A stretch of DNA of 64,000 nucleotides, taken from NCBI GenBank assembly GCA_043803105.1, contig JAZDKJ010000006.1, forward strand, positions 364,222-428,221, written 5' to 3'. The position numbers were made by a program, and so were the translations under genes. Positions 12,329 to 59,913 of this stretch are shown here, piece by piece (position 1 is the first letter of the stretch; each line of letters opens with the position of its first letter). Below the pieces are notes generated by a model. It searched no databases, was not told where the DNA came from, and worked only from the letters and a program-made list of their open reading frames with translations. The DNA comes from Candidatus Woesearchaeota archaeon (lineage in GTDB: Archaea; Nanobdellota; Nanobdellia; Woesearchaeales; JAZDKJ01).

Positions 12329-13050
12329 ATGAACCTCTCTGTGTAATGAGCATAATAGTTTCGTGCCCAGCTGATTAGTGGCAGTGCTATCATAACCATC
12401 ACTAACAGCTTGAAGAACTGGTCTAATCTAGGGAGCACAAGAAATCGCAATATCACAACCATGAATCCTATCACCGCGTAGGGAACCACAAATTTATGGA
12501 ACCTGCATCCAGTCCAGAAAAGCGCCTTGATGGATTTTTTTATGCTCCGCGTTCTGGCATAAGAGAAAAGTATAATGGTGTTGAAGTGCAATGTAGCCAT
12601 CCCAATGATGACAAACAGGACATTATTATTCAGTTTGATTATTGAAAACAAGGCAATTACGATTGCGACACATAACAGGCCATAGTTGAGCAACGCCATT
12701 TGCCAGAAGTCTTTCAAGGAAAATCTCGTGCCAACCAGCCTGCTCCATATAATCCCTTTGAAGAGGCTAAACTCCGCTATTGCTGCCACAAAGAACAATC
12801 CTATCAAAATGAACAGCGTCGAAAGAAAACCTGCCAGCATATGTAACTGTTCCTGCGCATGGGCTGGGTCAATTGCTGCATTTAGGTTTACCGGCGTGGT
12901 TGCCCTGACTGTCAATGCCCACACAAGAAAGGTGCAGAATAGCGTAGCATAGAAAAGCAGGTCATAGCCATAGGCCACTAGAATCTTCTTGACTTCAAGA
13001 CTTTGCAGAAGAACCTTAAGTTCCTGCTTAAAATACCCTCTTTCAGTCAC
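12307..13050 (-). CDS. polytopic membrane protein, hypothetical
   Basis: 247 aa with about six TM segments. First gene of the operon, overlapping the next ORF by 22 nt. Confidence 0.5.
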   Translation of the reverse strand: MTERGYFKQELKVLLQSLEVKKILVAYGYDLLFYATLFCTFLVWALTVRATTPVNLNAAIDPAHAQEQLHMLAGFLSTLFILIGLFFVAAIAEFSLFKGIIWSRLVGTRFSLKDFWQMALLNYGLLCVAIVIALFSIIKLNNNVLFVIIGMATLHFNTIILFSYARTRSIKKSIKALFWTGCRFHKFVVPYAVIGFMVVILRFLVLPRLDQFFKLLVMVMIALPLISWARNYYAHYTERFIWKKEDR

Positions 13051-13076
13051 AGATCTTTCTCAGACTGCAGCCCTAT

Positions 13077-13784
13077 TTATATCTTTTTATGGATGTCCTT
13101 TACCTTGCCGAAATCCAATATTTCTCCATCAGAGACCACATAGGCCTCAAAGTCCCGGATTTTATTGTATGGTCCTAACAAATCATCGCTTGTGATGTCA
13201 GTTCCGTAGCTGGCTGAGCTGAATGATGGCATCACTATCAAGTCTGCCTTGCCATATTTTCCCTTCAGAAAACACTTGTAAGTCTCTGCCCTGGCCCCTT
13301 CCCTGATGGTTATTGCAGGATGCATATGCCCGATTATTATTGTCTTTGCTTTCTTTGGAATCTTCTGCTCGACATGCCCATGCATGAGAAAGACATCATC
13401 TATCATTATGTTGTCCACTATCCGTACATTCTTTTTCTTTGCTATTGGTTCGAGTATGATGTCATGGTTGCCCTTGATTAGCGTGACTTTTGCTGACTTG
13501 CTTAAAAGATCAAGCACCTTCATTGTCTCTCTCCATTCCTGGCTAGACACCTCTCCAAATTCGTGCTTGACGTCGCCATTTATGATGATATGTTCTGGTT
13601 TTGTTTTTGCCATTATCTTTTCGAGTTGTTTCAATAATTCGCGGAGCTGAAACCTAGGTATGAAGAAGCCCTGCTTGTTCAATGCCTCCTCAAAGCCAAT
13701 GTGCAGGTCAGAAATGACCAGTGTCTTACATTTCTTAAGGTGCAAGGCAAGGTCGATTATCTCGATTCCAGGATGTATTTCCAT
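13077..13784 (-). CDS. metallophosphoesterase (calcineurin-like phosphoesterase family)
   Basis: Motifs DLHIG, GDVKHEF, GNHD and GHMH. Confidence 0.75.
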   Translation of the reverse strand: MEIHPGIEIIDLALHLKKCKTLVISDLHIGFEEALNKQGFFIPRFQLRELLKQLEKIMAKTKPEHIIINGDVKHEFGEVSSQEWRETMKVLDLLSKSAKVTLIKGNHDIILEPIAKKKNVRIVDNIMIDDVFLMHGHVEQKIPKKAKTIIIGHMHPAITIREGARAETYKCFLKGKYGKADLIVMPSFSSASYGTDITSDDLLGPYNKIRDFEAYVVSDGEILDFGKVKDIHKKI

Positions 13785-13789
13785 GAGCT

Positions 13790-14212
13790 GTGCAAAACCA
13801 GGTGGCTATAAAAGCTTTAGTAAAAAATATAAACCCTGATTGCCCGCCTTGTATTATGAGAGAAACACAGGAGATAATAAAGAAATTCAATGATGAGCGG
13901 GCTTGGAGCACCCCACACAGCATCAAGGACCTGATGCTTAACATGAACGAGGAGATCGGCGAGTTCTGGACCTTGATAAAATAGGTTGACATCCCAACTC
14001 AGCAGAGGCTCATAAAAGAGAACAAAGCTGAGGTCGAGAATTTTGTTGGTGACATGATTTATCTCATCCTCAAGATAGCCTATCTTTGCGAAATAGATTC
14101 CAAAAAGGCCATTGATGATGTAATGCAGGAATATGAGATGCGCTTCCCAAAGGAGCAGACTAAGGGCAGGCACGGCAACAAGCTTGCAGGCGGCATCGAC
14201 CTTAAAGAATAA
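13790..14212 (+). pseudogene. MazG-like nucleoside triphosphate pyrophosphohydrolase interrupted by an in-frame TAG
   Basis: The 5' ORF (13790-13984) encodes ...FNDERAWSTPHSIKDLMLNMNEEIGEFW. After TAG at 13982-13984 the same frame continues with ...ENFVGDMIYLILKIAYLCEIDSKKAIDDVMQEYEMRFPKE to TAA at 14210-14212. Both halves match the MazG/NTP-PPase fold. Confidence 0.6.
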
Positions 14213-14216
14213 ATTT

Positions 14217-14346
14217 ATTCCAGCACAAAGCCGCACTTCTTGCAGAACAATTCATCATTTTCAAAGACTACGCTGTCGCTTCCGCACTCAGGGCAGGTCT
14301 TCTCCTTGTCCTCGTTCTTCAAGTCATTAAGTGAGTGCTCATTCAT
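14217..14346 (-). CDS. TFB N-terminal zinc-ribbon-only mini-protein (43 aa)
   Basis: MNEHSLNDLKNEDKEKTCPECGSDSVVFENDELFCKKCGFVLE matches the TFB/TFIIB Zn-ribbon (CPECGS...GE.VC..CG.V). Its ATG overlaps the upstream ORF's stop as ATGA. Below the 60-aa ORF-track cutoff. Confidence 0.5.
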
Positions 14347-14612
14347 TGCTCTTCCTCTTCAAGCATTTTTTTAACCCTTCGTGCCTTTTCTTCGACTTTT
14401 TCCAGGAGCTCAAGGTCGCTGAAATTCTCTTTTGCACAGCTGTCGCAATAATAGTCAGAAGTGTCCTTTATCTGGAACTGGGCATCGGTGCCGCAGATGA
14501 TGCATTTCTTGGGCATGAGATTCTTACAATGTTTGTGCTGCTTAAAAAGGTTTTGGTTTTGCTTTTGCGGTTTTAAGTCGACAGAATCATTCAAGCCCAA
14601 AGGATTCGACAA
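14343..14612 (-). CDS. small zinc-ribbon protein, hypothetical
   Basis: CIICG...YYCDSC four-cysteine ribbon with an acidic C-terminus. Confidence 0.5.
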   Translation of the reverse strand: MSNPLGLNDSVDLKPQKQNQNLFKQHKHCKNLMPKKCIICGTDAQFQIKDTSDYYCDSCAKENFSDLELLEKVEEKARRVKKMLEEEEQ

Positions 14613-14862
14613 ACTCTGTGATCAGTTTGTACTTGTTCAGGTATTCGTATCCCTTTTCGGTTAGCGAGTAGGTTCTTCCGTCCTTTGTGGTGTGCTGTAC
14701 CATGAATCCTTTTCCCATGAGTTCAGTCAGGTACTCGTCCATCATGACATGGGAAAGGTTTGATTTGTAGAGTATGTGTGTGGGCTTTATTCTGCCGTCT
14801 CTCTCCCTTATGGCATTCAGGATGTCATGTATTACCTGAAGCCTGTCCCGCTTCTTGCTCAT
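14587..14862 (-). CDS. winged-helix DNA-binding protein
   Basis: 91 aa with a typical small archaeal wHTH. Confidence 0.55.
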   Translation of the reverse strand: MSKKRDRLQVIHDILNAIRERDGRIKPTHILYKSNLSHVMMDEYLTELMGKGFMVQHTTKDGRTYSLTEKGYEYLNKYKLITEFVESFGLE

Positions 14863-15521
14863 TTTTTTACAATCAAAATAAGATCTATAAGTATCAAGAT
14901 ATATGCTATCATCTCAAGGCCGTGCGCGATGAAGTAAAAAACTGCGTGGTTGACCGAGAAAATAAAGTGTATGCTTCCAAACAGGAGGAATGTAAACGCA
15001 ACAAATACCATCAAGGTTTTTCCTTGCTTGTTTCCAAGAAAATTCATAAGGTAGTGTGATGTCACAAATATCAGAAGTATGCTTGAAATGATGTAGTATG
15101 CATACAGTTTGTTTGCACTGAGCAGAAGCGCAAAAAGGGAGAGCAGGAACACCAAATACCAGAGCTTCGGGCCTCTTGTTTTGAATGACATGTAGACAAG
15201 AGTGACAAGCGCTGTTATGAACAGTAGGATATGCGTGTAAATGCCCACAAAATTGAGAATTGCAACATTGTTCAGCTGTATGAGCCTTGAGATGCCTTCG
15301 TTTAGCTCGGTCATGACTGCGTAATTCATTGCAGATTGCACAAAATACGCAATTGAAAACAGCAAGAACGCTATTCCAAAAAGCCTGGATTGTTTTTGGT
15401 CGGAAAGCTTGTACACCTTAAAGGCAAAGATACTTACTGCCATGGTGATGATAGCAAAAGTGAACTGCAGCGCAACATCGTAACCAAGAAACCAGGCCGG
15501 TATTAGGTAAATATGAGGCAT
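14859..15521 (-). CDS. polytopic membrane protein, hypothetical
   Basis: 220 aa with about seven hydrophobic helices. Confidence 0.5.
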   Translation of the reverse strand: MPHIYLIPAWFLGYDVALQFTFAIITMAVSIFAFKVYKLSDQKQSRLFGIAFLLFSIAYFVQSAMNYAVMTELNEGISRLIQLNNVAILNFVGIYTHILLFITALVTLVYMSFKTRGPKLWYLVFLLSLFALLLSANKLYAYYIISSILLIFVTSHYLMNFLGNKQGKTLMVFVAFTFLLFGSIHFIFSVNHAVFYFIAHGLEMIAYILILIDLILIVKK

Positions 15522-15659
15522 TTATCCTTGATAAACAGTCTGCCTTTTTTAAGGTTTATGGAACATTCTTTCAGAATAATCTTCAGTATAACTCTTTAAC
15601 AACGAATAAATAAAAGCCTTTGCTATTGATTTCTAACAGCTAAATGGAGGTGGGTGTAA

Positions 15660-15895
15660 TGAAAACCCGTCAAGACTATACGCATGAATTGAAGGCCAAG
15701 GAGGCAAGGATATCTGCATATGAGCCTGACTACATCAGGACAATTTATGACTTTGACTTTGAGGAGGTGCAAGCATGAGGGTCGAGGATTATGAGTTCCT
15801 GCTTGTGGGCGACATATACCATTGGCAGCTGGATGGGCAGGGCCGCATTATGATTATGGAGAACGTCAGCCAAAAGCCTGCTACGTCTTATTAAA
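15660..15895 (+). CDS. two overlapping 39-aa small ORFs behind a Shine-Dalgarno-like GGAGGTGGGTG
   Basis: ORF1 is MKTRQDYTHELKAKEARISAYEPDYIRTIYDFDFEEVQA. ORF2 starts at an ATGA overlap (about 15776) and reads MRVEDYEFLLVGDIYHWQLDGQGRIMIMENVSQKPATSY. Confidence 0.25.
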
Positions 15896-15964
15896 ATTTT
15901 ATTTTTATTGTTCAAACAAAGGCTTATCTATTTGATAAGGTCAAATTGTAGTTGAGGTGAAAAT

Positions 15965-16195
15965 ATGCCTATGATGTATGATTATGGTTACGGCCATGGA
16001 TGGGGATCCTTCGGAGCCTTTTGGATGATAGTCTTTTGGGCTGCATTGATTTGGTTTATTGTCTGGCTCGTAAGGAGGAGCGATTGGCACTCGATGCGCG
16101 GCACAGAATCCTTAGAGATTGTAAGGCAAAGATACGCAAAAGGAGATATAACCAAGAAGCAGTTTGATGAGATGAAAAAGGACCTTAATGGTTAA
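15965..16195 (+). CDS. SHOCT-domain small membrane protein
   Basis: One TM plus C-terminal LEIVRQRYAKGDITKKQFDEMKKDL, a SHOCT motif. Confidence 0.6.
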   Translation: MPMMYDYGYGHGWGSFGAFWMIVFWAALIWFIVWLVRRSDWHSMRGTESLEIVRQRYAKGDITKKQFDEMKKDLNG

Positions 16196-19049
16196 TTCTT
16201 TGCTTGACCAGTTCTGATAACTCTTTCGGCCATTTTTCAATCTCAGATTTTTTCTTTCTTAAGAATTCAATAAATCCATCTTTAACTTCCCTTCCTTCTA
16301 TCATTTCTGCCAATTGTTCCTTCTCTGTTATTGAAAGCCCCTCGATGTTCCATGCTTGCATCTTAAGGCTGTCGATTTTGTCTTCTTTTTCTGCCTCAAG
16401 TTTTTCTTCCTGCTCTATCCAAAGCTCTTCATAGCTCTTGATTTTGTTCTCTGGCTGCTTCTTTCCCTGTTTCAAAGATATTTTTGCCAGTACCATCTCG
16501 TGCATTCTTTTCAGGAACTCCATCCTGTCCTCGATTTTCAACAGGTCTGTGTAGCCCTGCACTATGAGGTTGAAGGCGAACGGGCTTGGCACTGTTGTTG
16601 CGTATTGCTGGATCTTTATCTTGCCATCTTCGATTTGCTTTAGCACAATGCTTGCGCTTTTTTCGTCCATCAGGTCTTCAAGCACCTCTCTTCGTGCCTC
16701 TTCGAGTATCGGAAATCTTGGGTTTATCCTCCTTACAGCGCTTATAAGTATTGTGGATGATACTTGCTGTCTCCCCACCCTTTGCGTCCTTCCCTTATAT
16801 TGCCTTAGTATCATTAATGCCCTTGTTGCGCAGTGCCTAAACCTTCTTTTCAGTACCTCGCTCGTTTCTATTGCGTTTCTTAACACCAGGTCCAGCTTTT
16901 CTGATTTCAATAGCTCAAAGGCCTTCATCACATTGACCTTCTGATTGGTCATCAGGTAGAATCCATTGTCGTTGATTCCTACTGAAACATCCCTGTGGCT
17001 AACCCTTGATACTGCAAATCCTACCGCCCTTGATAGTGCGTCGTTTACCCTTCTCCCAAACAGGCTGTGCAGCAGGTAGTATGTTTGCTTGCCGTCGTTG
17101 TAGGTTTCCATGATTATTGACTTGTCTGTTGGTATTTCCAGGTACTCTGCCTGTTCTTTGAAATAATTGTATAATGCTTTCGCTGCTTTGCTGTCCACGT
17201 AAAGGTACTGGTTGATGAAGCCCATAACCTCTTCCTCGTTCTGCCTGGCTGAAAATTTCTCTTTGATTAATCTCCTGAATCTGCCTATTTCTAAAGCAAG
17301 GTCAAAGCTTAATGGCAGCATCTCTGAGAACCATGATGGTATTGTTGGCGGCCTATACACTGATGTTCTCACGTACGCAACCATGCCCTTTGCGTACAGG
17401 AACTCATATTTTTCCCCTCCCAAGACAAATACGTCTCCCTTTTTTAGCCTTTCAAGGAAAGCCTCGTCTATCTGTCCTATTGCCTGCTCACCTATCTTCA
17501 CTGTTATGTACATCTCGTCTGGTATCGTTCCTATGTTTGTCATGTAGATTACCCTGCCGAGCCTTCCTTTTTTCCCTATCATATTGCTTTCAGGGTCATA
17601 CCATATCTTTGCGTAGATGTGCCTGTCTTCGAGCGATGTGAACTTTCCCGCAAGGTATTGGAGTATATCGATGTAGTCCTTTCTTTGCAGGTCTTTGAAC
17701 GGGTAGCTCTGCTTGATTATTTTGAAAAGCTCGTCAACATTCCATTTCTGCTCTAAGGCAAAACCATCTATCTGCTGTGCAAGCACGTCAAGGCAGTTTG
17801 TTGGCAGGTGTATCTTGTCAATCTTTTTCTCTATTGCGCACTTTAGCAATACTGAGCATTCCACCAGGTCGTCCCTGTCAAGCACTATTATCCTTGCCTT
17901 GACCTTGTCGTGCAGTTTGTGTCCTGACCTTCCTGCTCTCTGAAGAAATCTTGCTACTGACTTTGGCGAGCCAAGGCAGATTACAAGGTCTATGTATCCT
18001 ATGTCTATGCCAAGCTCCAGGGAGGTGCTTGACACAATGACCTTGAGCTCTCCATTTCTTAGTCTGGTTTCTATGTCATGCCTGAGTGTTTTCGACAATG
18101 ACCCATGGTGCGCTCCTATGTTTGAGGTGTACTTTTGCGGCCACCTGTCCTTGAGATGGTCGATTACTCTCTCTGTTGCCGACCTTGTGTTTGTAAATAT
18201 GAGTGTTGTCCTATGGCTTTGCACCAGGTTGTCTATGAGCTCATACATTTTCTGGTGCATTACGCTGTGAGGCGTGCTTATCAGGTCTTCAACTGGTGAC
18301 ATTACTTTCAGGTCCATTTCCTTTAGGAATTGCACGTCTGCTATTTTGCAGTCTCTTGGTTTATCATCCTTGAAGCCTACCAGGAACAATGCAATCTCTT
18401 CTAATGGTGCGATTGTTGCGGAGAGGCCTATCCTTGTCATGTGCGGAGATAAGTAGTCAAGCCTTTCCAAAGACAATGATAAATGAACACCCCTCTTGTT
18501 CTCCGCTAACGCATGTATTTCGTCTACTACACACCACTCCACTGCCTTGAGGTGGTCCCTAAACTTAGGTGAGGTCAGCATGATGGCAAGGCTTTCAGGT
18601 GTTGTGATCAATATGTGCGGCGGCTTCCTTAGCATCTTTTGCTTTTCCGCTGTCGTTGTGTCTCCTGTCCTGACCCCTACTCTTATCCCAAGCTTTTTTC
18701 CTGCAGCCTCTTCCATTTCTTTCAAAGGTTCCACAAGGTTGTGCTGGATGTCGTTTCCGAGTGCCTTTAGCGGGCTCACGTAAACGCAGTAGATTTTATC
18801 CTGCAAAATTTCCTTTTGGGAGGAGTCTATTAGCTCGTTCAGAATCGATAGAAATGCTGTAAGTGTCTTTGTCGCTCCTGTCGGAGCGCTGACTAGGATG
18901 TTTGCCCTGGAGTGTATCTCCATCACCCCAAAGAGCTGCGGCAGTGAGAACTTCTCGAATTTCTTGAAGAACCATTCCTTAACGATTGGATTGAGGATTT
19001 GTTTCAGTTCTTCTTCAGTATTGGCTTTAACCTTATGCTCTATCATCAA
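16185..19049 (-). CDS. lhr: Lhr-like ATP-dependent helicase (large helicase-related protein)
   Basis: 954 aa with SF2 motifs (APTGATKT, VDEIH, SAT) and an Lhr-type C-terminal domain. Confidence 0.8.
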   Translation of the reverse strand: MMIEHKVKANTEEELKQILNPIVKEWFFKKFEKFSLPQLFGVMEIHSRANILVSAPTGATKTLTAFLSILNELIDSSQKEILQDKIYCVYVSPLKALGNDIQHNLVEPLKEMEEAAGKKLGIRVGVRTGDTTTAEKQKMLRKPPHILITTPESLAIMLTSPKFRDHLKAVEWCVVDEIHALAENKRGVHLSLSLERLDYLSPHMTRIGLSATIAPLEEIALFLVGFKDDKPRDCKIADVQFLKEMDLKVMSPVEDLISTPHSVMHQKMYELIDNLVQSHRTTLIFTNTRSATERVIDHLKDRWPQKYTSNIGAHHGSLSKTLRHDIETRLRNGELKVIVSSTSLELGIDIGYIDLVICLGSPKSVARFLQRAGRSGHKLHDKVKARIIVLDRDDLVECSVLLKCAIEKKIDKIHLPTNCLDVLAQQIDGFALEQKWNVDELFKIIKQSYPFKDLQRKDYIDILQYLAGKFTSLEDRHIYAKIWYDPESNMIGKKGRLGRVIYMTNIGTIPDEMYITVKIGEQAIGQIDEAFLERLKKGDVFVLGGEKYEFLYAKGMVAYVRTSVYRPPTIPSWFSEMLPLSFDLALEIGRFRRLIKEKFSARQNEEEVMGFINQYLYVDSKAAKALYNYFKEQAEYLEIPTDKSIIMETYNDGKQTYYLLHSLFGRRVNDALSRAVGFAVSRVSHRDVSVGINDNGFYLMTNQKVNVMKAFELLKSEKLDLVLRNAIETSEVLKRRFRHCATRALMILRQYKGRTQRVGRQQVSSTILISAVRRINPRFPILEEARREVLEDLMDEKSASIVLKQIEDGKIKIQQYATTVPSPFAFNLIVQGYTDLLKIEDRMEFLKRMHEMVLAKISLKQGKKQPENKIKSYEELWIEQEEKLEAEKEDKIDSLKMQAWNIEGLSITEKEQLAEMIEGREVKDGFIEFLRKKKSEIEKWPKELSELVKQRINH

Positions 19050-56893: not shown

Positions 56894-57850
56894 ATGTTAA
56901 ACAACAAAACCCTCGAGTCAGCCCTGTCAATACTTGGCTCTCTTGGTCCAGGACCTGCCTGCCTTATCTATAATGATGGCATGCTCTCGAGTGCTGCATG
57001 CAGCATTTCTGCTGCTGACGCTTTCGAGAAGGCTCGTGATAGTTGCTGGACAGGAACCATTGCAGGCTCTGCATTCTTCAACAGGCCTCTGTGCTTGGAC
57101 ACAGCTAAAATGATTGAAGAGACTGATCTTCTTCAGGTGTACGCTCCTTCATTTGATGATAAGGCAGTGAAGGTTTTAGAGAAGAAGACGATGGTTCCAA
57201 TAAACCTCAATAAAGCGCCAAACACAATTCAACTAATTTGCTTGAATAAGCGGAATAGTCAGTTGCGCACTTCTTTTTCTGCTCAGCAAAATGATTTGTA
57301 CTTGGCCATTGCGTGCATGCAAGATACGCCATCCCGTGCCCTGGTATTAGCCAAGGAAAGCAAGACTGCCGCGATTGTTGCGTCTGAAACACTGGAGGAT
57401 TGTGCTTTGCTTGCGTTGAGGGACGCAGGGAGAAACTATAAGAACATGATTTGTTACAATGATTACCATCTCTCCTATGACTTTCTTGAAAGCAGCATCT
57501 CCTGCGTCGCCCTCAGAGTGATTACAGAGCCAGAGGCAATTGCCAAAATTGAGGATATACAAGCAAGGAGTAAGATCATTGGTGGTGCTGTTAAGGTAGA
57601 AAAGCTTAGTGTAATGGACACCATAAACAAGCTTGCCAATCAAGACAGGTCGGGTCTTAATTACGCTGTTGCAGTCACCAAATGCGAATTTGACATGGCC
57701 ACCCTTAGCTTTCTTGCTGACAAAGGCATAATTGCTGTGGCACAGCCAAGCCATAATCCTGAGATTGAAAAAGGATGCCGTAAATTAGACCTTACTTTGT
57801 TGCTCTATCACATTAATGAAAAGCCAAAATGCTGCGAGGTGCGAATATGA
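56894..57850 (+). CDS. divergent AICARFT-like paralog (PurH-like domain protein)
   Basis: AGSAFFNRPLCLDTAKMIEETDLLQVYAPSFDDKAVKVLEKK resembles the PurH C-terminal region (SAFGGIIAFN...VEVIIAPSF...LKILAKK). It lacks the catalytic signatures. Confidence 0.4.
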   Translation: MLNNKTLESALSILGSLGPGPACLIYNDGMLSSAACSISAADAFEKARDSCWTGTIAGSAFFNRPLCLDTAKMIEETDLLQVYAPSFDDKAVKVLEKKTMVPINLNKAPNTIQLICLNKRNSQLRTSFSAQQNDLYLAIACMQDTPSRALVLAKESKTAAIVASETLEDCALLALRDAGRNYKNMICYNDYHLSYDFLESSISCVALRVITEPEAIAKIEDIQARSKIIGGAVKVEKLSVMDTINKLANQDRSGLNYAVAVTKCEFDMATLSFLADKGIIAVAQPSHNPEIEKGCRKLDLTLLLYHINEKPKCCEVRI

Positions 57851-58884
57851 ATGATAAAAAAGAATTTATGACTTACAAAGGTTCAGGTGTGGATGTTGAA
57901 AAAGGTGAGGCTGTTGCAAAAAATCTGGAGGAAGAATTGGGCTCGACTCTTAACGACCATGTGGTTCCAGGAAAGTCTGGATTCAAGAGGTTTTGGAGGG
58001 ACGAAAATCATACTTATGTTGCAGGTGCTGACGGTGTTGGAACAAAGCTCAAGGTTGGATTCTTGCTAAAAAAGATTGACACTGTAGGCATAGACCTGGT
58101 TGCAATGTGCATTAACGATATTGTCAGGGTGGGTGCAGAGCCAATGTTCTTTCTTGATTATCTTGCTACCGGTAAATTGGATGAAGGTGACCATCTTAAG
58201 ATTGTCAGTGGAATCGTAGAAGGCTGCAGGCGTGCAGGGGTTCCTTTGCTGGGAGGCGAGACTGCTGAACTGCCAGGGTTCTACTCGCCTAAAGAATTTG
58301 ATCTTGCAGGTTTTGCAGTTGGCAGAGCGAAACACCAAGATCTGATTGACGGCACCAATATAAAGGTTGGGGCTGCGCTTTTAGGCATTGAGTCATCAGG
58401 CCTGCACAGCAATGGCTACTCTTTGGCGAGAAAGGTGCTTATGGAAAAGCTAGGCCTTGGAATGTTTGATTATGTGGCCAAGCTTAGGTGCACAGTTGGA
58501 CAAGAGCTGATAAGGTCAACCATCATCTACTCCAAGCCAGTTCTTGATCTACTGAGTCACTTTCCTGGCCAGGTTCAGGGAATGGCTCATGTTAGTGGAG
58601 GAGGTATGCCAAACAAGGTTCCAAAATGTTTTCCTGAAGGCTGCGGCGCAGTCATAAATGAGGGCAGCTGGCCTGTGCATCAGATTTTCTCGTACATTGC
58701 AGAGAACGGCCCAGTTGCACCTGAGGAAATGAGAAGGACCTTCAACATGGGTATTGGTATGGTTATGGTAATAAACGACAAGGGTGTGGTGCCAGAGATA
58801 TCTTCGCTTTTGTTGGAAAGCCACAAACTCAAGAGTTATGACATAGGCAACATTGTTGCTGGCAGAGGATTGCAGTATATCTAG
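57829..58884 (+). CDS. purM: phosphoribosylformylglycinamidine cyclo-ligase (AIR synthetase)
   Basis: GVDVEKGE, GADGVGTKL and LLGGETAELPG motifs. Confidence 0.9.
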   Translation: MLRGANMNDKKEFMTYKGSGVDVEKGEAVAKNLEEELGSTLNDHVVPGKSGFKRFWRDENHTYVAGADGVGTKLKVGFLLKKIDTVGIDLVAMCINDIVRVGAEPMFFLDYLATGKLDEGDHLKIVSGIVEGCRRAGVPLLGGETAELPGFYSPKEFDLAGFAVGRAKHQDLIDGTNIKVGAALLGIESSGLHSNGYSLARKVLMEKLGLGMFDYVAKLRCTVGQELIRSTIIYSKPVLDLLSHFPGQVQGMAHVSGGGMPNKVPKCFPEGCGAVINEGSWPVHQIFSYIAENGPVAPEEMRRTFNMGIGMVMVINDKGVVPEISSLLLESHKLKSYDIGNIVAGRGLQYI

Positions 58885-58905: not shown

Positions 58906-59913
58906 GTGCCTTATCGGGCTTTTATGTTCTTAGACAGATTGGGCAAGGTTGAGCACTCCAAGTTCTATGTAGAGCTTGCTATAAGGCACGCTAATGCGCG
59001 ATGCAAGCTCTTGAAGCAGAAACTGCCTGTCAAGGAACGCCTGCTAAGGGAGAAAAAGGTTGGCTCTTACAGGCTGCAGATGATTGACAAGTATTTGGGA
59101 GCAGAGCTTAACAGGCTCATAGCCTGCTTTCCAGACTTTGAGTCTATTCCTGTCTTCTACCTTGAGCTTGTCAAGCTCACAACAGATTATGAGGCGACAA
59201 CGTCAGCATTAAAAAAGCTTGATTGGCTGAGAAGAAGCACGCGCTCATTGGCTAAGGCATATATTGACAGGATTTCAAAACGTAATGACATTAAATTTAT
59301 TCTCTCCAGCGAGAAAGCATTTTATGGCAGGCTTTTCGGCTTAGCAAGGAAGGTCGACCCTAGCTTAGAAGTCCTTGAGACGGTTAGGAAGGTCATGAGA
59401 GAATACCCTGTTGTAAAGACCTCGTTGTTCACTGTTGCTATTGCAGGCTTTCCAAATGTCGGCAAGACCACTCTGCTTTTCAAGCTGACAGGTTCACAGC
59501 CAGAGATAAAGAACTATGCCTTCACAACAAAAGGCATCAACACTGCTTACATGTCTTTTGAGTCAAGGAAGGTTCAGCTTCTTGACACCCCCGGCACTTT
59601 GGACAGGATTGAGAAGATGAACAATCTTGAAAAACAGTCTTTCCTTGCAATACAGCATCTTGCAAACTGCATAGTCTATGTTTTTGATGTTACAGAATCT
59701 TATCCTCTTGATGACCAGATAAAGCTTTACCTCAGGTTAAAGGAGCTTGACAAGCCGATGATTGTGTATGCCTCAAAGACTGACATTTCCAAGGATAACC
59801 TTGCACTGCTTTCAGATTATGAGCCGATCACTGACTTACAGATTCTTCAGGAAAAGTTGAAATCCTTGGCAGAAAAATCCGATATTCTGCCACCGCCATC
59901 TTCAGATTCTTAG
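58906..59913 (+). CDS. NOG1-family GTPase
   Basis: VAIAGFPNVGKTTLL, DTPG, and a Nog1-type N-terminal helical domain. Confidence 0.8.
   Translation: MPYRAFMFLDRLGKVEHSKFYVELAIRHANARCKLLKQKLPVKERLLREKKVGSYRLQMIDKYLGAELNRLIACFPDFESIPVFYLELVKLTTDYEATTSALKKLDWLRRSTRSLAKAYIDRISKRNDIKFILSSEKAFYGRLFGLARKVDPSLEVLETVRKVMREYPVVKTSLFTVAIAGFPNVGKTTLLFKLTGSQPEIKNYAFTTKGINTAYMSFESRKVQLLDTPGTLDRIEKMNNLEKQSFLAIQHLANCIVYVFDVTESYPLDDQIKLYLRLKELDKPMIVYASKTDISKDNLALLSDYEPITDLQILQEKLKSLAEKSDILPPPSSDS

What the first reader, a model, noticed from the sequence alone, without database searches (positions are those of the whole stretch)
14217..14612. Stand-alone TFB zinc-ribbon mini-protein start-stop overlapped (ATGA) with a second Zn-ribbon protein
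The 43-aa ORF is essentially the TFB N-terminal Zn-ribbon (CPECGS...FCKKCGFVLE) with no B-reader, linker or cyclin core. It is coupled to an 89-aa CxxC...CxxC protein with an acidic tail. A free TFB ribbon could dock on the RNAP clamp/dock domain and compete with full TFB, as an anti-initiation factor or regulator. It could also be a remnant of a decayed tfb.
Basis: partly seen in the sequence, partly recalled or inferred. Interest (0 to 1): 0.5.

Follow-up and report, generated by a model that had tools for sequence, protein, structure and literature searches.

The report
Free-standing TFB-type zinc-ribbon mini-protein family
The 43-residue ORF is a real, conserved gene from a large and uncharacterised family of DPANN-archaeal mini-proteins that consist of little more than the RNA-polymerase-docking zinc ribbon of transcription factor B; it is not a decayed tfb gene, and what it does has not been tested.

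Summary
A 43-aa ORF (14215-14346) passes Pfam's TFIIB zinc-ribbon threshold. Its ATG overlaps (ATGA) the stop of an upstream Cys4 gene. That partner is 57 aa (ATG at 14516), not 89 aa.

The mini-protein belongs to a tightly defined family:
- at least 418 clusters at 90% identity
- median length 46 aa
- spacing C-x2-C-x13-C-x2-C in 112 of 112 members
- the chain ends 5-7 residues after the last Cys
- a family-specific N-terminal motif, KS[LM]xx[LIV]xxE[DE]

Named members come from Woesearchaeota, Nanoarchaeota and Pacearchaeota. The closest solved structure by sequence is the Pyrococcus TFB ribbon (E 6e-9).

It is under purifying selection (dN/dS 0.06-0.25). It is not a pseudogene remnant: no TFB core survives in the window. 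It is not a split TFB either: one relative carries a mini-ribbon and a complete TFB with its own ribbon on the same contig.

The pairing with the 57-aa partner is found only in close relatives. Elsewhere the gene context changes from clade to clade.

The function is inferred, not shown. The most likely role is docking at the TFB-ribbon site on RNA polymerase and modulating initiation. A non-polymerase partner is almost as likely.

Interest is moderate. This is a new variant of truncated TFB paralogues.

The parts
14215..14346 (-). Gene for the 43-aa mini-protein (stop codon included); the NCBI name is 'TFIIB-type zinc ribbon-containing protein', Candidatus Woesearchaeota
   Evidence: ORF list. 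PF08271 scores 31.4 bits against a cut-off of 29. An identical NCBI protein, P0001, lies on a 542,637-bp contig. dN/dS against orthologues is 0.06-0.25.
14218..14298 (-). Zinc-ribbon domain, residues 17-43: C18-x2-C21-x13-C35-x2-C38, then GFVLE and the stop codon
   Evidence: The family profile matches PDB 1PFT (P. furiosus TFB ribbon) at E 6e-9. hhalign against TFB N-termini gives probability 97.8%, E 7.9e-13, with a 2-residue deletion in the hairpin. AF2 pLDDT is 86-89 over this stretch. The x13 spacing is found in 112 of 112 family members.
14308..14334 (-). Family-specific N-terminal motif (residues 5-13, SLNDLKNED; family consensus KS[LM]xx[LIV]xxE[DE]); predicted to be disordered
   Evidence: Alignment A1: E12 is nearly invariant. 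The motif is found in 99 of 112 members. pLDDT is 51-67. The motif is absent from the TFB N-termini examined.
14343..14346 (-). ATGA overlap: the partner's TGA stop and the mini-protein's ATG start
   Evidence: Read directly from the sequence. Relatives L004 and L005 also have overlapping genes, by 23-41 nt as listed or called.
14343..14516 (-). Partner gene, 57 aa (MPKKCIICG...EEEEQ): a Cys4 finger plus a long C-terminal helix and an acidic tail
   Evidence: 17 homologues, all starting M-x-KKC. NCBI V1837_04060 is 57 aa. AF2 pLDDT is 87.6. There are only weak B-box/ZZ-like fold matches and no Pfam or NCBIfam family above threshold.
14541..14548 (-). TATA-like box TTTTTAAG, preceded by an A-rich stretch, 24 nt upstream of the partner's ATG; probable promoter of a leaderless partner + mini-protein transcript
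   Evidence: The same box lies 23-24 nt from the ATG in L004, L005 and L001. That it acts as a promoter is inferred.
14587..14862 (-). Upstream winged-helix gene (91 aa, HTH_45 / Sso10a family); neighbour only, not part of the conserved core
   Evidence: PF14947 at E 2e-18. NF053610 scores 61.8 bits against a cut-off of 60. Present in L004 but absent in L005-L007.

Best explanation
SHOWN: 14215-14346(-) is a functional gene. It encodes a member of a large DPANN-archaeal family of 43-50-aa proteins. Each consists of a short conserved acidic N-terminal motif followed by a TFB/TFIIB-type zinc ribbon, and the chain then stops. The protein is a free-standing paralogue of the TFB ribbon. It is neither a piece of the cell's TFB nor a remnant of one. 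In this clade it is co-transcribed and translationally coupled with a 57-aa Cys4-finger/helix protein.

INFERRED: the only known job of the TFB/TFIIB ribbon is to bind the RNA polymerase dock domain over the RNA exit pore and so recruit the polymerase. The mini-protein keeps every conserved ribbon position, but it lacks the B-reader, the B-linker and the TBP/DNA-binding cyclin core. The most likely mechanism is therefore that it occupies the ribbon site on RNA polymerase without being able to tether the enzyme to a promoter. That would compete with TFB and damp initiation, or otherwise modulate it. The conserved disordered N-terminal motif may make a second contact.

My confidence that it is a real conserved TFB-type ribbon gene is about 0.9. 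My confidence in the polymerase-docking mechanism is about 0.35-0.4, which is the figure given for this explanation.
For: - Domain identity: PF08271 is above threshold for the window protein and matches 36 of 37 aligned members. The next specific families are also TFIIB-like ribbons (A2L, Rrn7).
- Closest structure: the best PDB sequence match is the P. furiosus TFB ribbon 1PFT at 38.6 bits, against 24 bits or less for TFS, Rpb12 and ribosomal ribbons.
- Profile comparison: the family profile against TFB N-termini gives 97.8% probability, E 7.9e-13.
- Family size and uniformity: 85 hits among 1.84e9 representatives, about half of them end-to-end 42-64-aa proteins and none a full-length TFB. 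At least 418 clusters at 90% identity. Spacing is x13 in 112 of 112, and the tail is 5-7 residues in 112 of 112.
- Purifying selection.
- Coexistence with a complete TFB in L019.
- The protein is acidic like TFB ribbons (family mean net charge -2.8), so it is unlikely to bind nucleic acid.
- Known role of the ribbon: it binds the dock domain, is essential for polymerase recruitment, and blocks the RNA exit pore (PMC7289017; PMC3025549; PMC6212726).
- Precedent for a paralogue of a basal factor turned into a polymerase inhibitor: TFS4 (PMC7289017).
Against: - No experiment or co-folding result shows binding to RNA polymerase.
- The hairpin is 2 residues shorter than in every TFB examined (x13 against x15), which could change or abolish dock binding.
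- Gene neighbourhoods show no consistent link to transcription genes. The contexts include pyrF, a roughly 230-aa HEAIH-motif protein, membrane proteins and a metallophosphoesterase. Only 1 of about 29 genome loci has a tfb gene nearby.
- Zinc ribbons are versatile interaction modules.
- The closest characterised truncated TFB, TFB3, activates rather than competes, and its isolated 49-aa ribbon fragment was not sufficient for function (PMC6101594).
- The family-specific N-terminal motif suggests a partner of its own.
Confidence: 0.38

Rival explanations
1. It is a generic zinc-ribbon adaptor whose resemblance to the TFB ribbon reflects shared ancestry only. On this reading it binds a partner other than RNA polymerase. 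Candidates include the ribosome, a partner recognised by the N-terminal KSLxxLxxED motif, or in this clade the 57-aa Cys4/helix protein. It would have no role in transcription initiation.
For: Neighbourhoods vary and are not related to transcription. The N-terminal motif is family-specific and absent from TFBs. The hairpin is shortened. Other archaeal Cys4 mini-proteins occur in ribosome structures, for example the HVO_2753-like chain 9e71_Bc. JGI pipelines have given members ribosomal-protein names.
Against: The ribosomal-protein and RpoP models score far below their thresholds: PRK00432 scores 21.8 against 54, and PF03604 scores 18.5 against 24. The protein is acidic, unlike ribosomal proteins. 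The TFB ribbon is the best match by a wide margin.
Confidence: 0.35
2. It is a positive co-factor like TFB3. It would join the TBP-TFB-DNA-polymerase complex in trans and stimulate transcription of a gene subset, possibly together with the helix-bearing 57-aa partner, which would stand in for the TFB3 coiled coil.
For: TFB3 is a truncated TFB paralogue that keeps the 4-Cys ribbon and acts in trans as an activator (PMC6101594; PMC7289017). In this clade the mini-protein is coupled to a protein with a long predicted helix.
Against: TFB3 needs its coiled coil, and the 49-aa ribbon fragment alone was not functional. The partner is missing from most loci that carry the mini-protein. TFB3 co-occurs with TFB1 proteins that have degenerate 2-Cys ribbons, whereas the TFB next to a mini-ribbon in L019 has all four Cys.
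Confidence: 0.12
3. It is a split gene. On this reading the cell's TFB lacks a ribbon and the mini-protein supplies it in trans, in the manner of the split genes known from Nanoarchaeum.
For: From general knowledge, DPANN genomes do contain split genes. The tfb gene of this particular genome lies outside the window and could not be inspected.
Against: L019 encodes a mini-ribbon and, 0.9 kb away, a 325-aa TFB with its own C-x2-C-x15-C-x2-C ribbon and B-reader. A ribbon with no covalent link to the B-reader and core could not recruit the polymerase to the promoter. The mini-protein family has its own fixed spacing and its own N-terminal motif.
Confidence: 0.03
4. It is the remnant of a decayed tfb pseudogene, or a chance ORF.
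For: None beyond the ORF's small size.
Against: No TFB core remains in any frame. The DNA downstream is occupied by a convergent MazG-like gene that ends 2 bp away. dN/dS is far below 1. There are hundreds of homologues of the same length.
Confidence: 0.01

Closest known systems
N-terminal zinc ribbon (B-ribbon) of archaeal TFB / eukaryotic TFIIB (Pfam PF08271; PDB 1PFT)
   Same: Same domain type: four Cys, and the conserved positions CP-x-CGS, GE before the third Cys, and CG-[LFY]-V-x-[ED] after the fourth. It is the best sequence match among solved structures, and the profile-profile probability is 97.8%.
   Different: It stands alone: there is no B-reader, B-linker or cyclin folds. The hairpin is 2 residues shorter (x13 against x15). 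It carries an extra conserved N-terminal acidic motif.
TFB3 of Sulfolobales (truncated TFB paralogue, DNA-damage-inducible activator)
   Same: A TFB paralogue that keeps a canonical 4-Cys ribbon, lacks the DNA/TBP-binding core, and coexists with a full TFB (PMC6101594).
   Different: TFB3 is much longer and needs a C-terminal coiled coil, which the mini-protein lacks. TFB3 is crenarchaeal and tied to the Ced/Ups DNA-damage response, whereas the mini-protein family is found in DPANN. The isolated TFB3 ribbon is inactive.
TFS4 of Saccharolobus (a transcript-cleavage-factor paralogue turned RNA polymerase inhibitor)
   Same: A conceptual precedent only: a paralogue of a basal polymerase-binding factor that has lost the productive part and inhibits the enzyme globally (PMC7289017).
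   Different: It has a different fold arrangement and a different binding site (the secondary channel). It is not homologous beyond the generic ribbon: the family profile matches RpoM-2 only at E 1.9e-4.
Archaeal C(P)XCG zinc-finger mini-proteins (for example the Haloferax HVO_2753-type proteins and the Methanosarcina CxxC small proteins)
   Same: A very small Cys4 protein with CPxCG-type knuckles. The class is known to be abundant and mostly uncharacterised (PMC12704099; the chain name of 9e71_Bc).
   Different: No significant similarity to those families: NCBIfam HVO_0649 and HVO_0416 score 14-17 bits against cut-offs of 70-80. The present family is specifically TFB-ribbon-like and restricted to DPANN.

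Membership tests
TFB/TFIIB general transcription factor (full-length) | N-terminal Cys4 zinc ribbon | tested here: met
   PF08271 scores 31.4 against 29. 1PFT matches at E 6e-9. hhalign gives 97.8%.
TFB/TFIIB general transcription factor (full-length) | B-reader and B-linker following the ribbon (for example the GPEWR motif) | tested here: not met
   The protein stops 5 residues after the last Cys. NF001658 matches only model positions 5-43 of 312, scoring 23 bits against 384. The TFBs used for comparison do have GPEWR/GKEWR.
TFB/TFIIB general transcription factor (full-length) | Two C-terminal cyclin folds that bind TBP and the BRE | tested here: not met
   Not present in the ORF and not present in any frame of the window.
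Pfam PF08271 Zn_Ribbon_TF (domain-level membership) | Score at or above the gathering threshold | tested here: met
   31.4 bits against 29 for the window protein; 36 of 37 aligned family members match at E<=1e-3.
TFB3-type truncated TFB paralogues | Canonical 4-Cys ribbon | tested here: met
   C18, C21, C35 and C38 are invariant in the family.
TFB3-type truncated TFB paralogues | Conserved C-terminal coiled-coil motif, essential for activation | tested here: not met
   There is no sequence after the ribbon: the tail is 5-7 residues in 112 of 112 members. The requirement is described in PMC6101594.
TFB3-type truncated TFB paralogues | Induced by DNA damage, and binds promoter complexes containing TFB1 and TBP | not testable with these tools
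   This needs expression data and biochemistry.
DPANN mini-B-ribbon family (defined here by alignment A1) | Length about 43-50 aa; C-x2-C-x13-C-x2-C; chain ends 5-7 residues after the last Cys | tested here: met
   The window protein is 43 aa, has x13 spacing and a 5-residue tail. The family shows x13 in 112 of 112 members.
DPANN mini-B-ribbon family (defined here by alignment A1) | N-terminal motif KS[LM]xx[LIV]xxE[DE], 5-6 residues before the first Cys | tested here: met
   The window has HSLNDLKNED, with H in place of K/R. E12 is nearly invariant. The motif is present in 99 of 112 members.
RNA polymerase subunit P (Rpo12/Rpb12) or ribosomal zinc-ribbon proteins (S27ae, S27e, L37ae, L37e) | Score at or above the curated family threshold | tested here: not met
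   PF03604 scores 18.5 against 24, and PF01667 scores 16.6 against 24.5. PRK00432 scores 21.8 against 54, PRK00415 scores 15.4 against 70, and PRK03976 scores 14.9 against 87.
Zinc ribbon (for the 57-aa partner) | Two zinc knuckles on beta-hairpins forming a three-stranded ribbon, or a match to a ribbon family model | tested here: inconclusive

The most novel reading that the evidence does not exclude
Woesearchaeota, Nanoarchaeota and related DPANN lineages carry a lineage-wide free B-ribbon. It would dock on the RNA polymerase dock/RNA-exit site and act as a dedicated global anti-TFB factor, a protein decoy of a basal initiation factor, perhaps to throttle transcription in these tiny host-dependent cells. 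This mode of regulating archaeal initiation has not been described.
Probability: 0.25. Interest if true: 0.7.

Novelty: new variant of a known kind. Interest (0 to 1): 0.45.

Why it matters
Archaeal and eukaryotic initiation depends on the B-ribbon docking onto RNA polymerase. A conserved natural protein that is only that ribbon would be a ready-made probe and a possible regulator of this step. If it competes with TFB, it would add a decoy class of global regulator next to TFS4 and viral RIP, and it would point to how genome-reduced DPANN archaea control transcription with few specific regulators. The question is cheap to test: the 43-aa peptide can be synthesised and added to existing reconstituted archaeal transcription systems. 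On the practical side, public pipelines name family members inconsistently (S27AE, S27E, L37AE, RpoP, transposase, hypothetical), so a proper family definition would correct those annotations.

Tried and rejected
- An exact-sequence lookup of the mini-protein in the contig index found nothing. A word-indexed homologue search with the single protein returned only itself. The exhaustive HMMER search was needed to find the family.
It was repeated with 8 close members.
- The viral-contig scan returned one unrelated 109-aa phage protein with a generic ribbon, so the family is not viral.
- Rfam found nothing in 13000-16200. The bacterial-type promoter and terminator scan gave no more than shuffled sequence does and does not apply to archaea.
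- A search for a conserved functional neighbour across 29 loci found only clade-level synteny.
- Literature searches for a described stand-alone TFB ribbon or 'TFIIB-type zinc ribbon' found no such paper. Hahn & Roberts 2000, on ribbon surface residues, was not held, so conservation of dock-contact residues could not be checked residue by residue.
- Global TAG recoding as the explanation for the interrupted MazG-like gene was rejected: TAG ends 10 of 49 long ORFs.
- The C-terminal part of the 281-aa L032 fusion protein was tested as a divergent TFB core. It gave no match.

Full report
**1. What is in the sequence**

The finding lies on the minus strand. ORF 14215..14346(-) encodes MNEHSLNDLKNEDKEKTCPECGSDSVVFENDELFCKKCGFVLE, 43 aa. 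Its ATG overlaps the TGA of the upstream ORF in the tetranucleotide ATGA; the + strand reads tcat at 14343-14346.

The upstream ORF can be read as 89 aa from a TTG codon, but the evidence favours a 57-aa protein (14343..14516). The NCBI protein is 57 aa and all 17 homologues begin M-x-KKC. A TATA-like TTTTTAAG box with an A-rich stretch before it sits 24 nt upstream of ATG 14516. The same box lies 23-24 nt from the ATG in L004, L005 and L001. I infer from this a leaderless bicistronic transcript carrying the partner and the mini-protein.

Further upstream on the same strand are a 91-aa winged-helix protein (HTH_45 / Sso10a family) and a 220-aa membrane protein. These two genes also overlap by ATGA.

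Downstream, a convergent MazG-like gene on the + strand ends 2 bp from the mini-protein's stop.

**2. Is it a TFB-type ribbon?**

Yes. The evidence comes from several independent comparisons.

- The protein scores 31.4 bits against PF08271, 'TFIIB zinc-binding', whose gathering score is 29.
- 36 of 37 aligned relatives match PF08271. The next specific families are also TFIIB-like ribbons, A2L and Rrn7.
- A profile of the family finds the P. furiosus TFB ribbon (1PFT) as best solved structure, at E 6e-9 and 38.6 bits. TFS-like, Brf2, Rpb12 and ribosomal ribbons score 24 bits or less.
- Profile-profile comparison with three full-length archaeal TFBs aligns the family to the TFB N-terminus with 97.8% probability, E 7.9e-13. 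The only indel is a 2-residue deletion in the hairpin.
- AF2 gives a confident beta-hairpin ribbon (pLDDT 86-89) and a low-confidence N-terminus.
- Curated models for RpoP and for the ribosomal zinc-ribbon proteins score far below their thresholds.

**3. Is it a decayed or split tfb?**

No.

- phmmer and tblastn with full-length TFBs match nothing in the 64-kb window except the ribbon itself.
- Orthologues in relatives are under purifying selection: pN is 0.16-0.19 against pS 0.52-0.85, giving dN/dS of 0.06-0.25.
- In locus L019 a mini-ribbon (294-446) lies 0.9 kb from a complete 325-aa TFB. That TFB has its own C-x2-C-x15-C-x2-C ribbon and a GKEWR B-reader. The mini-protein is therefore an extra paralogue, not the cell's only ribbon.
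- The tfb gene of the source genome itself lies outside the window and was not seen.

**4. The family**

An exhaustive HMMER search of 1.84 billion representatives gave 85 hits at E<=1e-3. About half are 42-64-aa proteins matched end to end, the rest are multi-ribbon repeat proteins, and none is a full-length TFB. A profile search of the 5.8-billion-protein set gave at least 418 clusters.

Among 112 members examined:

- the Cys-pair spacing is x13 in all 112
- the chain ends 5 residues (96 members), 6 residues (15) or 7 residues (1) after the last Cys
- the median length is 46 aa
- 99 carry an N-terminal motif KS[LM]xx[LIV]xxE[DE], which TFBs lack

Longer database entries are over-extended start calls. 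The proteins are acidic, with a mean net charge of -2.8.

Named sources are Woesearchaeota, Nanoarchaeota/Nanoarchaeia and Pacearchaeota. Records labelled 'uncultured Methanosarcinales', 'Aminicenantes' or 'Brocadiales' share synteny with Woesearchaeota loci or are single cases. They look like labelling or binning artefacts.

Pipeline names for the family are inconsistent: TFIIB-type zinc ribbon-containing protein, S27AE, S27E, L37AE, RpoP, transposase and hypothetical. The viral collection holds no member.

**5. Context**

The order partner -> mini-protein -> metallophosphoesterase is kept in the close relatives L004-L007, where the partner is 69-73% identical. The two small genes overlap there as well.

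More distant members of the partner family (L001-L003) have no mini-protein nearby. About 29 genome loci that carry the mini-protein have no partner. Elsewhere the mini-protein follows pyrF in about 7 loci, precedes a roughly 230-aa protein with an HEAIHTPDEYETR motif in 6 loci, or sits among unrelated genes.

Genomic context gives no consistent clue to function.

**6. Mechanism (inferred)**

The literature read here states three things about the TFB/TFIIB ribbon. It binds the RNA polymerase dock domain. It is essential for polymerase recruitment. It sits over the RNA exit pore until the transcript reaches about 12-13 nt (PMC7289017; PMC3025549; PMC6212726).

That makes it a decoy or modulator. 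TFS4 is a precedent for a paralogue of a basal factor that has become an inhibitor.

Four points count against this:

- The hairpin is shorter than in TFBs.
- The family has its own N-terminal motif.
- There is no genomic link to transcription genes.
- The nearest characterised truncated paralogue, TFB3, is an activator that needs a coiled coil, and its isolated ribbon is inactive (PMC6101594).

I put polymerase docking at about 0.38, an unrelated adaptor role at about 0.35, and a TFB3-like co-activator at about 0.12. The split-gene idea is at about 0.03 and the pseudogene or chance-ORF idea at about 0.01.

**7. Comparison with what is known, and novelty**

At the domain level the protein is a member of PF08271. 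It is not a TFB3, because it has no coiled coil.

I found no paper in the searchable library that describes a ribbon-only TFB paralogue family. NCBI's pipeline already gives the protein a domain-level name, so the gene itself is not unseen.

I rate it a new variant of a known kind, namely truncated TFB paralogues and archaeal Cys4 mini-proteins. Interest is moderate (0.45): the family is large, sharply defined and easy to test, but its function remains speculative.

Noticed in passing
window 13790-14212 (+), in-frame TAG at 13982-13984: A MazG-like ORF (PF03819, weak, E 0.0018) is interrupted by an in-frame TAG. It converges on the mini-protein gene and ends 2 bp from its stop. Relatives L004 and L005 have no such gene there; in them the mini-protein is followed directly by the metallophosphoesterase. 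TAG is an ordinary stop in this window (10 of 49 long ORFs), so this is probably a pseudogene or a sequencing error rather than recoding.
   Followed up: partly
L032 3995-4840 (+): A 281-aa Woesearchaeota protein has a mini-type ribbon (x13 spacing) at its N-terminus, fused to a roughly 250-aa domain. That domain has no Pfam match and no similarity to the TFB core. It is a possible fusion clue to the ribbon's partner.
   Followed up: partly
L017 4108-4815; L020 4164-4868; L024 510-1178; L028 504-1232; L030 4086-4877; L037 4119-4799: A conserved protein of about 230 aa lies immediately downstream of the mini-protein in six loci. Its C-terminus is strongly conserved (GGVLGFTYLGENFMARRDDL...VDVHEAIHTPDEYETRVLT), with an HExxH-like motif, and it has no Pfam family. 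It may be an uncharacterised metallopeptidase-like family.
   Followed up: partly
L019 294-2333: Here the mini-protein is followed 24 nt later by a PF0610-like protein (winged helix plus rubredoxin-like ribbon). A complete tfb gene lies 0.9 kb away on the opposite strand. This is the only locus with a transcription-related neighbourhood.
   Followed up: partly
L004 943-1107 (+): A third small CxxC...CxxC ORF (54 aa) overlaps the 3' end of the mini-protein gene in this relative. It has only sub-threshold zinc-ribbon hits and its reality is unverified.
   Followed up: no
window 14859-14862 (-): The 220-aa membrane-protein gene and the Sso10a/HTH_45 winged-helix gene also overlap by ATGA. This pair is present in L004 but absent in L005-L007, where the Lhr-type helicase gene directly precedes the partner. 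The pair therefore looks like an insertion or deletion between the helicase gene and the partner gene.
   Followed up: partly
L009, L010, L012, L013, L019, L020, L023-L025, L031 (record titles); L027; P0137: Eleven GTDB representative records that carry the mini-protein are titled 'uncultured Methanosarcinales archaeon' (binchicken TPA MAGs), yet several share local synteny with Woesearchaeota-labelled loci. One locus is titled Aminicenantes bacterium and one protein Brocadiales bacterium. These are probably labelling or binning errors.
   Followed up: no
window 57829-58884 and 58906-59913 (+): Two adjacent ORFs of about 340 aa lie in the same reading frame, separated by a TAG stop. They could be tandem paralogues or one interrupted gene; this was not examined.
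   Followed up: no
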